64,000 nucleotides of DNA from Eubacteriales bacterium (GCA_045126855.1 JBGVPG010000032.1:5274-69273), one strand, 5' to 3'. Positions 21,319 to 55,076 are shown, counted from the first letter of the stretch. Program-made: numbers and translations. The notes: a model not told the origin generated them from the letters alone.

Positions 21319-21342
21319 TATCTCTTCGACGGACTGAGGAGC

Positions 21343-21525
21343 AGTTATATTCGCCTGCAGCGAGTGATATTGCTACGCAGTGATATTTGGCTTACGCCAA
21401 GTGATATTCGCTTTGCGAGTTTTAGTGGCGAATATAATATCACTGTGAGCATAATTTGCAATTCAAATTTGCGAACAATATCACTACGAGCAAAGCGAGT
21501 AATATCACTGCGAAGCAATATCACT
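21343..21525. repeat. Array 1 of mini-hairpin + ATATCACT units (4 inverted + 4 direct)
   Basis: AGTTATAT at 21343; AGTGATAT at 21363, 21379 and 21400; ATATCACT at 21437, 21478, 21502 and 21518. Each abuts a short GC-clamped palindrome. Confidence 0.85.
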
Positions 21526-28296: not shown

Positions 28297-28781
28297 AAAT
28301 TATAGAAATTTTTGGCGATAACCGATACCCCGAGTACACCAAAATCCGTGAGGGTTGCCGTGGAATATTAATTAAAAACGGTAAAATTCTATTAAGCTAC
28401 GAAAAAAATATCGACCAATATCTAATTCCGGGCGGCGGCATTGAGGAAGGTGAGAGCCTTGCCAAGTGTTGCATCCGTGAGATGGCTGAGGAGACGGGTG
28501 TGGAGGTCGAGCCATACGAGCATTACCTCACCCTTGAGGAATACTATCACGAATATTACTTTAAGAGCCACTATTTTCTCTGCCGCTACGTCGGTGAATG
28601 CGAGAGAAGTCTCACCGAAAATGAGAGGGAAAACGGACTTGAACCAAGATGGGTAGACTTTGACGAAGCCTTAATGATTTTTGGCAACTACGAAAAATAC
28701 AAGGACAAAAGCGAAATGCGCTACGGCGCATATTACAGAGAGTATCTGGCGCTTACAGAGATGAAGAGAACCGCAGAGTAA
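28293..28781 (+). CDS. NUDIX hydrolase
   Basis: Nudix box GGGIEEGESLAKCCIREMAEETGV. ATGA overlap with the kinase gene. Confidence 0.85.
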   Translation: MKIIEIFGDNRYPEYTKIREGCRGILIKNGKILLSYEKNIDQYLIPGGGIEEGESLAKCCIREMAEETGVEVEPYEHYLTLEEYYHEYYFKSHYFLCRYVGECERSLTENERENGLEPRWVDFDEALMIFGNYEKYKDKSEMRYGAYYREYLALTEMKRTAE

Positions 28782-28824
28782 ATCTGCGGTTTTAAATATA
28801 TTTTTCCCTTGCAACAAATTTCTC

Positions 28825-28853
28825 TTGACATAACAAGTAAAAAATGGTACAAT
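28825..28853 (+). promoter_or_regulatory. Perfect consensus sigma-A promoter (TTGACA-17-TACAAT) driving the tRNA-like leader and tRNA-Arg
   Basis: TTGACA at 28825..28830, a 17-nt spacer, TACAAT at 28848..28853. Confidence 0.7.
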
Positions 28854-28864
28854 TTACAAAGTAT

Positions 28865-29003
28865 CTACCCGTGGCACAGCTGGATAGCGCGCAAGACTCC
28901 GCATACCGCTAGCGGTATATTGCCGTGCGAGGAGATTGTACCTGCAATTAGTACAACAAGCGGAATTACCACAAATACTGCCCCGAGCGGCAAACTCTGA
29001 AGG
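28865..29003 (+). pseudogene. Interrupted, degenerate tRNA-Arg(CCG)-like copy in the tRNA leader
   Basis: 28865..28901 matches the first 37 nt of the downstream tRNA at 33 of 37 positions. A 92-nt insert follows the anticodon, then ACTCTGAAGG (28994..29003) resumes the match. There is no T-arm or 3' acceptor strand. Confidence 0.55.
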
Positions 29004-29035
29004 TATCGCGTTAGCGATCCCAAACAACTCAATAT

Positions 29036-29112
29036 CTACCTATGGCACAGCTGGATAGCGCGTCAGACTCCGACTCTGAAGGTCCGCGGTTCGAATCCGC
29101 GTAGGTAGGCCA
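29036..29112 (+). tRNA. tRNA-Arg (anticodon CCG), CCA encoded
   Basis: Manual cloverleaf: acceptor CTACCTA/TAGGTAG; D arm GCAC-AGCTGGATA-GCGC (one A.C mismatch); anticodon arm TCAGA-CTCCGAC-TCTGA; variable loop AGGTC; T arm CGCGG-TTCGAAT-CCGCG; discriminator G; CCA. Total 77 nt. Confidence 0.9.
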
Positions 29113-29113
29113 A

Positions 29114-29145
29114 AGGTCGGCAGGATTTCCTGCCGACCTCTTTAC
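29114..29145 (+). terminator. Hairpin terminator after tRNA-Arg
   Basis: AGGTCGGCAGG-attt-CCTGCCGACCT followed by a weak T-tract (CTTTAC). Confidence 0.6.
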
Positions 29146-29157
29146 AAGGAGACAACT

Positions 29158-29982
29158 ATGCCTAAAATTATTCATATAACCGACTTTTCCGACCCTGCAC
29201 TTGACGTTTACGTCAGGCTGACAGGAGCGCAGCTGCGAAGCAAGCTTGAGGGCGAGGCAGGAATATTTATAGCCGAGAGCCCCACGGTAATTGAGGTGGC
29301 TATGCAGGGTGGCTGTGAGCCAATATCAATACTTACCGACGAGAGACTTATTGCAAGCGGCGGTGTTACCGCCATACTCGACAAGTGCGGTGATATTCCG
29401 ATTTACACCGCAAGCCGTGATTTGCTGACGAAAATGACGGGCTTTGAGCTTACCCGTGGAGCACTTTGTGCCATGAAGCGCCCTGCACTTCCCTCGGTAA
29501 GCGAGGTCCTTCGAGGTGCGAGACGTGTGGCTGTGCTGGAGGAGGTAACCGACTCCACCAATATTGGCGCAATTTTCCGTTCTGCGGCAGCCCTTGGCAT
29601 TGATGCGGTGCTGGTAACACCCACCTGCTGCGATCCACTCTGCCGACGTGCAGTAAGAGTCAGCATGGGCACGGTGTTCCTCGTTCCATGGACGAGAATC
29701 GGCGAGAGTAAAAACGATTGGCCCGAGGCAGGCATTGAAAATCTGCATAGTCTTGGCTTCAAGACGGTGGCGATGGCGCTTACCGACAGATCGGTATCCA
29801 TTGACGATCCTGCCCTGAAGGGCGAGGACAAGCTTGCAATCATTCTCGGCACAGAGGGTACGGGGCTCAAATCCGAGACAATAGAAAACAGCGACTACAC
29901 CGTAAGAATTCCCATGAAGCATGGAGTTGACTCGCTGAACGTGGCGGCAGCCGCCGCAGTTGCCTTTTGGGAATTGAGATAA
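29158..29982 (+). CDS. TrmH/SpoU family RNA 2'-O-methyltransferase
   Basis: 274 aa with LEEVTDSTNIGAIFRSAAALG, ILGTEGTGL and IPMKHGVDSLNVAAAAAVA. Confidence 0.85.
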   Translation: MPKIIHITDFSDPALDVYVRLTGAQLRSKLEGEAGIFIAESPTVIEVAMQGGCEPISILTDERLIASGGVTAILDKCGDIPIYTASRDLLTKMTGFELTRGALCAMKRPALPSVSEVLRGARRVAVLEEVTDSTNIGAIFRSAAALGIDAVLVTPTCCDPLCRRAVRVSMGTVFLVPWTRIGESKNDWPEAGIENLHSLGFKTVAMALTDRSVSIDDPALKGEDKLAIILGTEGTGLKSETIENSDYTVRIPMKHGVDSLNVAAAAAVAFWELR

Positions 29983-54971: not shown

Positions 54972-55076
54972 GTTTGCGTAGCAAACATATCACTCGACTG
55001 TTGTCGAATATCACTTTTGCAAAGCAAAAATATCACTATTGCGAAGCAATAATATAACGTTTGCCATAGGCAAACA
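54972..55076. repeat. Array 2 of mini-hairpin + ATATCACT units (5 units, one orientation)
   Basis: GTTTGC-gta-GCAAAC ATATCACT; CGAC-tgtt-GTCG AATATCACT; TTTGC-aaa-GCAAA AATATCACT; ATTGC-gaa-GCAAT AATATAAC; GTTTGCC-ata-GGCAAAC. Confidence 0.85.

What the first reader, a model, noticed from the sequence alone, without database searches (positions are those of the whole stretch)
28865..29112. tRNA-Arg(CCG) is preceded in the same transcript by a tRNA-like copy interrupted right after the anticodon by 92 structured nucleotides
A perfect TTGACA-17-TACAAT promoter (28825..28853) fires into 28865..28901. That segment matches the first 37 nt of the bona fide tRNA-Arg(CCG) at 29036 (acceptor 5' strand, D arm, 5' anticodon stem, loop up to CCG) at 33 of 37 positions. 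The match stops exactly after the third anticodon base. It resumes for 10 nt (ACTCTGAAGG, 28994..29003), corresponding to the tRNA sequence that directly follows the anticodon. The 92-nt insert (28902..28993) is highly structured. It contains the 16-nt perfect palindrome ATACCGCTAGCGGTAT (28903..28918), the hairpin TTGTAC-ctgcaatta-GTACAA (28936..28956), and a closing helix TTGCCG (28920..28925) with CGGCAA (28988..28993). An insertion in the anticodon loop next to the anticodon is where bacterial tRNA group I introns sit. However, 92 nt is far below known group I sizes. In addition, the 3' part has only a stunted arm (TCGC-gtta-GCGA), no 3' acceptor strand, and two substitutions that weaken the anticodon stem. 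Possible readings are a decayed intron-containing tRNA duplicate, a tRNA-mimic leader (a processing or regulatory decoy co-transcribed with the real tRNA), or a new small insertion element that targets the anticodon loop.
Basis: partly seen in the sequence, partly recalled or inferred. Interest (0 to 1): 0.65.

Follow-up and report, generated by a model that had tools for sequence, protein, structure and literature searches.

The report
Repeat module inside tRNA-Arg pseudo-copy
The 92-base "insert" is one copy of an undescribed, tightly folded ~95-base repeat found hundreds of times in one genus of ruminant-gut Clostridia, usually wedged into a loop of a broken tRNA gene copy beside the intact tRNA gene; it is not an intron.

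Summary
A strong promoter is followed by 37 nt matching the tRNA-Arg(CCG) 5' half at 33/37, a 92-nt structured block, 11 nt of tRNA positions 37-47, a mini-hairpin, a spacer and the real tRNA.

The 92 nt are not unique. A covariance model finds about 308 copies in 65 of 121 genomes of the genus, up to 14 per genome and 3 in this genome. All three own copies sit in partial copies of a neighbouring tRNA (Arg-CCG, Gln-CTG, Lys-CTT).

The fold is supported by covariation: P1 hairpin, closing helix P2, and P2a with a conserved tandem G.A.

Junctions are stereotyped, with G before the module in 78/80 copies and A after it in 58/80. Sites include anticodon loop 36|37 and T-loop GGTTCG|A. The module lies in either orientation relative to the tRNA piece, which points to a DNA-level origin.

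None of 80 copies lies in a restorable tRNA, and no intron or other Rfam family matches. No protein recurs beside the copies. RT and TnpB domains are absent from the high-copy genomes, and the IS200-type transposase does not correlate.

Best reading: a lineage-specific mosaic repeat or cassette system at tRNA genes, here co-transcribed as a leader. How it moves, and whether the RNA has a role, remain open.

The parts
28825..28853 (+). Sigma-70-type promoter TTGACA-17-TACAAT with TG extension. It is the only promoter upstream of the tRNA.
   Evidence: Homologous promoters sit at the same place in L042 and L007.
28862..28901 (+). Leader TAT plus a pseudo-copy of tRNA-Arg(CCG) positions 1-36/37 (acceptor 5' strand, D arm, 5' anticodon stem, loop up to CCG). 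It is 37/37 identical to the functional tRNA-Arg(CCG) allele of several congeners. It differs at 4 positions from the tRNA next door.
   Evidence: (D1)
28902..28993 (+). Structured repeat module ('CATACC module'), a member of a genus-wide family. The covariance-model match covers 28902-28995 at 86.9 bits.
28903..28918 (+). P1 hairpin (ATACCGC/GCGGTAT), here a perfect 16-nt palindrome. It covaries in the family, for example ATTCCGC/GCGGAAT in the orthologous L042.
28920..28932 (+). 5' strand of closing helix P2 (TTGCC), a 2-nt bulge, and P2a (GCGAGG, with tandem G.A).
   Evidence: I3
28936..28956 (+). Variable hairpin P3 (TTGTAC-ctgcaatta-GTACAA). This region differs most between copies. In one DNA run of the same species it appears replaced.
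28981..28993 (+). 3' strand of P2a (CCGAGC) and P2 (GGCAA).
28994..29004 (+). 11 nt identical to tRNA positions 37-47 (ACTCTGAAGGT). ACTCTG follows the module in most anticodon-loop copies, even where the local tRNA differs.
   Evidence: (D2)
29005..29018 (+). Mini-hairpin ATCGC-GTTA-GCGAT in the place of a T arm. A hairpin of different sequence occupies this place in most copies.
29019..29035 (+). Spacer ending in the TAT leader that precedes the real tRNA.
29036..29112 (+). Intact tRNA-Arg(CCG), the only gene for this isoacceptor in the genome.
29114..29146 (+). Intrinsic terminator (12-bp stem AGGTCGGCAGGA/TCCTGCCGACCT followed by a T-rich tail).
   Evidence: I1

Best explanation
The 92 nt are one copy of a lineage-specific, multicopy, ~95-nt structured repeat module. 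The family is restricted, as far as searched, to one genus of uncultured ruminant/animal-gut Oscillospirales-type Clostridia. It reached this place at the DNA level and is not an intron.

At this locus the promoter and the first 36 nt of a tRNA-Arg(CCG) gene are followed by a block of four parts: the module, 11 nt of tRNA positions 37-47, a mini-hairpin with spacer, and a complete tRNA-Arg(CCG). The block therefore behaves like a cassette placed at the G36|A37 step of the anticodon loop. It brings along, or is accompanied by, a replacement copy of the displaced tRNA part, so a working tRNA gene is always preserved next to the broken copy.

This is the logic of tRNA-targeting integrative elements (attB in the anticodon loop or T-loop, attP carrying tRNA sequence). 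Here it is miniaturised to about 170 bp and has no recombinase gene of its own.

Spread is inferred, not shown. It would occur in trans or by homologous recombination through the tRNA pieces and the flanking repeats.

Because the only promoter lies upstream, the pseudo-half and the module are transcribed as a ~170-nt leader of the tRNA precursor, and RNase P must release the tRNA. This step is inferred.

The module's fold is kept by compensatory changes, so the fold itself is under selection. It comprises P1, P2/P2a with a tandem G.A, a variable P3 and a short P4. Sequence alone cannot tell whether it acts as RNA or as single-stranded DNA.
For: Family size:
- A second and a third copy exist in the same genome.
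- About 308 covariance-model hits occur in 65/121 genomes of the genus, up to 14 per genome. Many lie at contig ends, as assembly-breaking repeats do.
- An exact-pattern scan of one genome per prokaryote species found 59 loci. All are in animal-gut MAGs labelled Eubacteriales, Clostridia, Oscillospiraceae, Acutalibacteraceae or Ruminococcus sp.. Viral contigs gave 0.

Fold:
- 11 of 17 modelled pairs show double changes, with 0/500 shuffles reaching this.
- Paired cells fall from 87% to 24-44% when partners are slid.
- The tandem G.A is kept in 39-40 of 43 rows.
- P1 changes compensatorily between the window and the syntenic L042 locus.

tRNA association:
- 27/80 unique copies lie within 150 nt of an intact tRNA, and 38/80 within 500 nt.
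- 28/80 have flanks that match a tRNA.
- 3/3 own-genome copies sit in a partial copy of the adjacent tRNA.

Stereotyped junctions:
- G at -1 in 78/80 copies (CG 39, TG 35). A at +1 in 58/80.
- Sites are 36|37 in Arg-CCG and Gln-CTG copies, and GGTTCG|A in the T-loops of Arg-CCT and Tyr-like copies.
- The module is antisense in Asn, Lys and Met pieces. This argues for DNA-level rather than RNA-level insertion.

Recent spread:
- One genome (G104) holds about 14 near-identical copies at unrelated loci.

Transcription:
- There is a single promoter and no terminator before the tRNA.
- Metatranscriptome contigs contain related [5' half + module] junctions and related cores.

Background in this genome:
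- At least 10 partial tRNA copies lie beside their parent genes, separated from them by this or other structured modules.
Against: - No filled/empty pair at one orthologous site was obtained. The 'empty' tRNA-Arg(CCG) loci of congeners are not syntenic.
- No excised or circular form was seen.
- No enzyme was found. No protein recurs within 1.5-8 kb of copies. Y1 transposase does not track copy number. RT and the TnpB domain are absent from all 11 high-copy genomes. These genomes are incomplete MAGs, so absence is weak evidence.
- tRNA identity breaks inside the 7-nt loop with no shared overlap sequence. That is not what tyrosine or serine recombinases normally leave.
- Retention of the arrangement across species, with compensatory changes, would fit a functional RNA gene equally well.
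Confidence: 0.55

Rival explanations
1. The module is primarily a functional structured RNA. It could be a cis-acting leader (affecting folding, RNase P processing or the amount of the downstream tRNA, for example by competing through its tRNA-like 5' half). It could instead be a processed small RNA or protein-binding RNA. Its dispersal would be secondary, through gene duplication and recombination.
For: - Loop nucleotides are strongly conserved (AGAU, GCGGAAY, CAAA) and the stems covary.
- The arrangement promoter / pseudo-half / module / hairpin / tRNA is retained in syntenic loci of several species, with compensatory change in P1.
- Arg and Gln copies are on the tRNA's strand within its transcription unit.
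- The G104 copies inspected appeared co-oriented with their flanking genes, on reading the sequences.
- The module is present in RNA libraries.
- In L007 the pseudo 5' half is 37/37 identical to the real one, so it could compete for the tRNA's 3' acceptor strand.
Against: - Copies next to Asn, Lys, Met, Ser, Leu and Glu tRNAs lie on the opposite strand with no evident promoter.
- 56 of 121 congeners have none, so it is dispensable.
- The anticodon stem around the module is broken in the window. The 5' strand is of allele type CAAGA and the 3' strand of type TCTGA.
- There is no Rfam match.
- RNA evidence is only unitigs from metatranscriptomes, in which DNA carry-over cannot be excluded.
Confidence: 0.28
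2. Passive scars. The module and the partial tRNA copies are what is left of larger integrative elements (prophage, ICE, IME or CIME) that once integrated into the tRNA's anticodon loop or T-loop and were then deleted. The module is just att-proximal element DNA and is not itself mobile.
For: - Partial tRNA direct repeats next to tRNA genes are the classic signature of integrase action. In this genome they occur at 10 or more tRNA genes.
- The sublocations (anticodon loop, T-loop) are those preferred by integrase subfamilies (own knowledge: Williams 2002, Nucleic Acids Res).
- An earlier follow-up on this genome's tRNA-Leu locus proposed CIME or tandem accretion (unchecked).
- A large serine recombinase lies near copies in L109-L111.
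Against: - About 14 near-identical copies in G104 lie at non-tRNA intergenic sites, always in the same short repeat frame.
- Stems covary and the G.A motif is conserved, which is not expected of dsDNA att arms.
- Tandem arrays of 182-342-bp units occur.
- There is no integrase near 80 or more copies.
- The pattern is absent from viral contigs.
Confidence: 0.1
3. A decayed or still active tRNA intron: a miniature group I-like intron, an archaeal-type intron, or a ribozyme-flanked intron.
For: The position next to the anticodon and the structured insert. One copy (L087) has a complete tRNA-Gln 3' half, from A37 through CCA and the terminator, right behind the module.
Against: - No Intron_gpI or other ribozyme hit at E<=10.
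- At 92 nt it is far below the roughly 200 nt of the smallest known group I introns (own knowledge).
- The upstream exon ends in G, not U.
- 0 of 80 copies restore a tRNA after removal.
- The L087 5' side is an inverted, degenerate copy of the 3' end, not a 5' half.
- Antisense and non-tRNA copies exist.
- No spliced joint was seen in RNA contigs.
Confidence: 0.03
4. A stand-alone guide-RNA scaffold (omega/reRNA-like) or the end of an IS200/IS605-type element (PATE), with the adjacent tRNA sequence acting as guide or target.
For: The geometry is target motif | structured element | sequence identical to the uninterrupted target. There is no target-site duplication and no terminal inverted repeat.
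Against: - The TnpB domain is absent from all 11 high-copy genomes and from the own genome.
- Y1 transposase is absent from 7 of 11 high-copy genomes but present in 4 of 11 zero-copy genomes.
- The left flank shares only G (YG), not a 4-5-nt target motif.
- There is no second subterminal hairpin like P1 at the right end.
- No Rfam IS605-orfB or HEARO hit.
Confidence: 0.03

Closest known systems
Mosaic repetitive extragenic elements (REP/BIME of enterobacteria; BOX elements of Streptococcus pneumoniae) - own knowledge
   Same: Multicopy, non-coding and intergenic. Built of modules that combine in different orders (here the core, X, R, Z and heptamer arrays). Strong stem-loop potential, no gene of their own, and confined to one lineage.
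   Different: A much larger and more elaborate conserved fold (about 95 nt, four helices, tandem G.A). Placement at a fixed step in tRNA loops. Association with partial tRNA duplication. No RAYT-type (Y1) transposase correlation.
tRNA-targeting integrative elements and their remnants (anticodon-loop and T-loop integration sublocations; CIMEs, tandem accretion) - own knowledge, Williams 2002 NAR
   Same: Breakpoints lie in the anticodon loop and the T-loop. A partial tRNA copy is left beside an intact, regenerated tRNA gene. Tandem arrays of units occur.
   Different: Units are only about 170-340 bp and have no integrase. Identity breaks inside the loop without a shared overlap. The inserted DNA has an RNA-like covarying fold and also spreads to non-tRNA sites.
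Bacterial tRNA group I introns (e.g. tRNA-Leu(UAA) of cyanobacteria, the 205-nt Azoarcus tRNA-Ile intron) - own knowledge
   Same: Located in the anticodon loop beside the anticodon of a tRNA-like sequence.
   Different: No catalytic core and less than half the minimal size. Host tRNA copies are never intact. The module occurs in either orientation. There is no Rfam hit.
Transposing archaeal tRNA introns at non-canonical positions (Thermoproteales; Fujishima et al. 2010, own knowledge)
   Same: Related short inserts are found at several loop positions (D, anticodon and T regions) of different tRNAs.
   Different: Those sit in functional tRNAs and are removed by the BHB-specific splicing endonuclease. 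Here the hosts are bacterial pseudo-copies, the position is 36|37 rather than 37|38, and antisense copies exist.
E. coli tyrT-rtT repeats (tRNA 3'-end fragments in tandem repeats behind tRNA-Tyr genes) - own knowledge
   Same: Tandem units containing a piece of the neighbouring tRNA, co-transcribed with it.
   Different: No dispersed structured module family and no loop-specific junction.

Membership tests
Group I intron in a bacterial tRNA | Catalytic core (P3-P7-P8) recognisable by the Rfam Intron_gpI model; size of about 200 nt or more | tested here: not met
   cmscan of 28780-29160 at E<=10 gives no intron or ribozyme hit. The insert is 92 nt.
Group I intron in a bacterial tRNA | Flanking exons form an intact tRNA after removal | tested here: not met
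   In-silico removal in 80 unique copies gives 0 ARAGORN tRNAs. The window copy lacks a T arm and a 3' acceptor strand.
Group I intron in a bacterial tRNA | Spliced product in RNA | tested here: inconclusive
   No spliced joint in metatranscriptome contigs; only unspliced junctions of relatives were seen. Contigs cannot show absence.
Archaeal/eukaryal-type (BHB) tRNA intron | Canonical 37|38 position or a BHB motif in a functional tRNA | tested here: not met
   The junction is 36|37 or in the T-loop. Hosts are pseudo-copies, and antisense copies exist. The splicing endonuclease was not searched for.
MITE (miniature inverted-repeat transposable element) | Terminal inverted repeats and a short target-site duplication | tested here: not met
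   The ends CATACCGC... and ...GAGCGGCAA are not inverted repeats. No short duplication flanks the module.
IS200/IS605-derived element (PATE) or TnpB omega-RNA | Conserved 4-5-nt target 5' of the left end; subterminal hairpins at both ends; Y1 transposase and/or TnpB in genomes where it is active | tested here: not met
   Only G (YG) is shared at -1. Y1_Tnp does not track copy number. The TnpB domain is absent from high-copy genomes. MAG incompleteness limits this test.
Retroelement-mobilised repeat (SINE-like or retrohoming) | Reverse transcriptase in genomes with recent copies | tested here: not met
   RVT_1 is absent from all 11 high-copy genomes and present only in 3 zero-copy genomes.
Mosaic repetitive extragenic elements (REP/BIME/BOX-like) | Multicopy, intergenic, non-coding, modular, stem-loop forming, lineage-restricted | tested here: met
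   About 308 copies in 65/121 genomes. No associated ORF. Modules combine in different orders. Covarying helices. Hits only in one group of gut MAGs.
att remnants of tRNA-integrating elements | Direct repeat of part of the tRNA flanking inserted DNA next to an intact tRNA | tested here: met
   40-nt repeat with 171-nt spacing in the window. The same holds at Gln, Lys, Arg-CCT and other tRNAs.
att remnants of tRNA-integrating elements | Integrase or recombinase gene, or a larger element, at or near the site | tested here: not met
   No recurrent recombinase lies within 1.5-8 kb. A serine recombinase appears in only 3 loci of 2 genomes.
Any described RNA family (Rfam 15) | Covariance-model match | tested here: not met
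   Nothing but tRNA in 28780-29160 at E<=10. Only tRNAs in 20 other loci at gathering scores.

The most novel reading that the evidence does not exclude
The module is a new kind of small, enzyme-less (trans-mobilised) mobile cassette, or a new class of mobile structured RNA. It is placed at the YG|A step of 7-nt hairpin loops (tRNA anticodon loop 36|37, T-loop 57|58). It keeps the tRNA alive by carrying a replacement copy of the displaced tRNA part. Its conserved fold would be the substrate of an as yet unidentified recombination or nicking activity, or it would have been adopted as a tRNA-precursor leader.
Probability: 0.25. Interest if true: 0.8.

Novelty: new variant of a known kind. Interest (0 to 1): 0.55.

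Why it matters
tRNA genes are the classic landing pads for mobile DNA, but the known users are kilobase-sized elements with integrases. Here a roughly 95-nt non-coding module with an RNA-like, covariation-supported fold occupies the same loop positions in broken tRNA copies. It multiplies to more than 10 copies per genome and has no recognisable transposase, integrase, RT or TnpB partner.

If it is mobile, it points to an unknown mechanism: trans-acting, recombination-driven or hairpin-directed. If it is a functional RNA, it is an undescribed family that rides in tRNA precursors.

Either way it explains why tRNA loci in this lineage are littered with tRNA fragments. It also warns annotators that such 'interrupted tRNAs' are neither introns nor simple pseudogenes.

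Tried and rejected
- **Rfam.** Gathering thresholds over the whole window, E<=10 over the locus, and gathering thresholds over 20 related loci gave only tRNA and two unrelated Gut-1 hits.
- **Intron reading.** Rejected after in-silico removal in 80 copies and after antisense and non-tRNA copies were found.
- **Associated protein.** ORFs around 30 loci (+-1.5 kb) and 59 loci (up to 8 kb) were clustered. Nothing recurred except orthologous neighbours and one serine recombinase in 3 loci.
- **Candidate enzymes in 11 high-copy against 11 zero-copy genomes.** Y1_Tnp showed no correlation. RVT_1 and the TnpB domain were absent from all high-copy genomes. Y2_Tnp gave no hit, but the control genomes were silent too, so that test is uninformative.
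- **Viral contigs.** None.
- **Orthologous empty site for tRNA-Arg.** Congeners with a plain promoter-to-tRNA arrangement exist, but they are not syntenic.
- **'Empty' R frames in G104.** R is always preceded by the core or by module X.
- **Population and RNA data.** Only Logan unitigs are available, and they break at the repeated tRNA half. Two DNA runs (X2, X5) show perfect flanks but no module at 80% likeness or more. That might be a module-less allele but could not be resolved.
- **Pseudoknot idea.** A pairing between the anticodon-loop CUCCG and the internal GCGGA or GGAG was considered and dropped, because it is not general across copies.
- **Literature.** One full-text search found no description of such an element.

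Full report
**1.

- ARAGORN and Rfam find one tRNA in the window, tRNA-Arg(CCG) at 29036-29112.
- Upstream, 28862-28901 repeats 29033-29072 at 36/40. That is 33/37 inside the tRNA plus the TAT leader, 171 nt away.
- The match ends exactly after the anticodon.
- After 92 nt it resumes for 11 nt: ACTCTGAAGGT is identical to tRNA positions 37-47.
- A mini-hairpin follows (ATCGC-GTTA-GCGAT, 29005-29018), then a 17-nt spacer.
- The promoter TTGACA-17-TACAAT (11/12, TG-extended) at 28825-28853 is the only one before the tRNA. No terminator intervenes.
- The 92 nt fold better than shuffles (z = -2.7).
- No Rfam family other than tRNA matches the locus, even at E<=10.

**2. The insert is a family member, not a one-off**

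- BLAST of the leader against the own genome found a 74% identical copy on contig C19.
- There it lies 124 nt downstream of tRNA-Gln(CTG). It is flanked by ...GTTAGCAGACTATG on the left and by ACTCTGTATGTCTGGGTTCG on the right. The right flank is 20 nt identical to tRNA-Gln after its anticodon.
- Relatives showed more copies.
- A covariance model (R1) built from five long copies found about 308 hits at E<=0.1 in 65 of 121 genomes of the genus. There are up to 14 per genome, scores reach 100 bits, and all matches are full length. Many lie at contig ends.
- The own genome has three copies: the window (86.9 bits), C19, and C15:51469-51561.
- The window holds only one copy.
- An exact-pattern scan of one genome per prokaryotic species found 59 loci. 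All are in animal-gut MAGs labelled Eubacteriales, Clostridia, Oscillospiraceae, Acutalibacteraceae or uncultured Ruminococcus. Viral contigs gave none.
- Sixteen other families of the order had no copy in a BLAST search.

**3. Anatomy and fold**

The consensus is 5'-CATACCGC-loop-GCGGTAT-A-TTGCC-nn-GCGAGG-AGAU-[variable hairpin]-A-AAAGCGGAAY..-CAAA..-CCGAGC-GGCAA-3'. Lengths are mostly 91-97 nt.

On 44 aligned copies:
- 87% of cells pair, against 24-44% when partners are slid.
- 11 of 17 pairs show changes on both sides (0/500 shuffles reach this).
- The two central positions of P2a are non-Watson-Crick in 39-40 of 43 rows. This is a conserved tandem G.A/A.G.

Shorter (~54-nt) variants keep P1 and P2 but replace the interior with a plain hairpin.

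**4. Context**

- Of 80 unique copies, 27 lie within 150 nt of an intact tRNA and 38 within 500 nt.
- 28 have flanks that BLAST to a tRNA.
- In this genome a random position would lie within 150 nt of one of the 41 tRNA genes about 1% of the time (my estimate).

Junctions are stereotyped. G precedes the module in 78/80 copies (CG 39, TG 35) and A follows it in 58/80.

Three kinds of site recur:
- **Anticodon loop between 36 and 37, sense orientation.** Seen in Arg-CCG and Gln-CTG copies.
- **T-loop GGTTCG|A.., sense orientation.** Seen in Arg-CCT (L096, L135) and Tyr-like copies (L085, L125, L139).
- **Antisense orientation in the anticodon-arm or T region.** Seen in Asn, Lys and Met copies (L048, L111, L028, L041). 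The own-genome C15 copy beside tRNA-Lys(CTT) belongs here.

Occurrence in both orientations relative to the tRNA piece argues against insertion into tRNA transcripts and for a DNA-level origin.

Removing the module in silico never yields a tRNA, in 0 of 80 copies. The most complete case is L087. It has an intact tRNA-Gln 3' half with CCA and terminator behind the module, but only an inverted, degenerate copy of that 3' end in front of it.

**5. The locus in the window compared with relatives**

- Syntenic loci with the same TrmH-like gene downstream, at 76-82% amino-acid identity, occur in L042, L047 and L050.
- L042 has the same order: promoter, pseudo-half, module, ACTCTGAAGGTA, hairpin, spacer, tRNA. 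Its P1 has changed compensatorily, from ATACCGC/GCGGTAT to ATTCCGC/GCGGAAT.
- At least 13 congeners have a plain promoter-to-tRNA-Arg(CCG) arrangement, but in other neighbourhoods.
- The window's pseudo 5' half is 37/37 identical to the functional tRNA-Arg(CCG) allele of several congeners, the ..GCGCAAGACTCCG type. The 11-nt 3' piece is of the neighbour's type (TCTGA).
- So the 'two substitutions that weaken the stem' are an allele difference, not decay. The pseudo-copy is a chimera.
- ACTCTG follows the module even where the local tRNA has ACTCCTG (L020/L035).

**6. Signs of recent spread and of a wider mosaic system**

- G104 (JAZSMV01) has about 14 near-identical copies at unrelated intergenic sites.
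- Each is framed by (GCAGAAT)n-GCG | module | ACTATGTTTCAAGAGTTGGAGC-(GCAGAAT)n.
- A second cargo, X (GAGC..AAAAACnGTT..AACnGTTTTT..GCGAAGCGA..), occupies the same frame. The 22-nt R motif is always preceded by the core or by X.
- X and further modules also separate partial tRNA copies from their parent genes in the own genome. There, at least 10 tRNA genes have a fragment 10-240 nt away.
- Fragment ranges are Pro-CGG 1-19, Met 1-25 and Arg-CCG 1-37 upstream. Downstream they are Asp 57-77, Val 56-76, Gln-TTG 60-75, Leu-CAA 68-87 and Ser-GCT 72-90.
- Earlier, unchecked notes of this scan describe the same kind of thing at this genome's tRNA-Leu and at Arg and Gln loci of other genomes.

**7. 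What moves it?**

- No protein recurs near copies.
- Eleven high-copy genomes were compared with eleven zero-copy genomes.
  - The IS200-type Y1 transposase does not correlate.
  - Reverse transcriptase is absent from all high-copy genomes.
  - So is the TnpB zinc-ribbon domain.
  - The IS91-type search was uninformative because its controls were silent.
- These are incomplete MAGs, so absence is weak evidence. Still, no known autonomous partner is visible.
- Homology through tRNA pieces and flanking repeats could allow spread by general recombination. A trans-acting hairpin- or loop-directed activity is the more novel alternative.

**8. Transcription**

- The tRNA depends on the upstream promoter, so the pseudo-half and the module should be a ~170-nt leader that RNase P removes. 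This is inference.
- Metatranscriptome unitigs contain relatives' [tRNA 5' half + module] junctions and module cores at depths of a few to about 20.
- No spliced joint was seen. Contigs cannot show processing, and DNA carry-over cannot be excluded.
- DNA runs of the same species suggest strain variation. In X4 the flanks and both module ends match the window but the interior differs. In X2 and X5 the flanks are perfect but no module is found. This stays unresolved because unitigs break at the repeated tRNA half.

**9. Verdict**

- The intron reading is out.
- The 'new small insertion element' reading is closest but needs widening. This is a genus-wide, structured, modular repeat or cassette system tied to tRNA loops and partial tRNA duplication.
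- A leader or RNA function remains a live rival, or an added role.
- I file it as a new variant of known kinds (mosaic extragenic repeats; tRNA-att remnants). Its mechanism is unknown.

Noticed in passing
window 21342-21412 (+) and 54982-55060 (-): Two Gut-1 RNA (RF01706) matches above the gathering score. An earlier follow-up on the first one read it as a mirrored REP/BIME-like repeat.
   Followed up: no
own genome G000: C13:34283-34303, C14:5211-5229, C24:96911-96930, C27:10935-10959, C29:23605-23625, C30:38288-38303, C30:45554-45572: Partial tRNA copies (Asp 57-77, Pro-CGG 1-19, Leu-CAA 68-87, Met 1-25, Val 56-76, Gln-TTG 60-75, Ser-GCT 72-90) lie 10-240 nt from their parent genes. Other structured modules (X, Z) separate them from those genes. 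The 5'-type duplications begin about at the transcription start.
   Followed up: partly
L064-L074, L147-L163 (G104 = JAZSMV01 contigs): Mosaic repeats made of heptamer arrays (GCAGAAT)n, then the core or module X, then the 22-nt R motif, then more heptamer arrays. About 17 R motifs were found, none without cargo in front.
   Followed up: partly
L007 minus strand 1800-1895 (G020) and L002 minus strand 1609-1720 (own C19): 3' tRNA fragments whose T-loop is interrupted right after GGTTCG. The interrupting blocks begin CATACC(GC..GCGGTAT), so the P1 hairpin is shared by other, shorter or different modules.
   Followed up: partly
window 28936-28981, DNA run X4: Contigs with flanks and module ends matching the window carry a different interior (..ATTCGCTAACCATAGATAATTAGCGGAACGTTATTTGCAAACTCTT..). 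This suggests strain-level replacement of the variable part.
   Followed up: partly
L109-L111 (JAZRFQ01/JAZORT01): A ~540-aa large serine recombinase ORF lies within a few kb of the module copies in L109-L111. L111 carries three tandem copies with antisense tRNA-Asn-like flanks. Seen only in these two genomes.
   Followed up: no
window 29158-29982: A SpoU/TrmH-family RNA 2'-O-methyltransferase-like gene directly follows the tRNA-Arg locus. It is syntenic in L042, L047 and L050. The family call is from reading the sequence and no domain search was run. No link to the module is shown.
   Followed up: no
window 28809-29000 (+): A 63-aa TTG-start ORF overlaps the promoter, the pseudo-half and the module. 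It is very unlikely to be coding, because the module interior varies with indels among copies.
   Followed up: no
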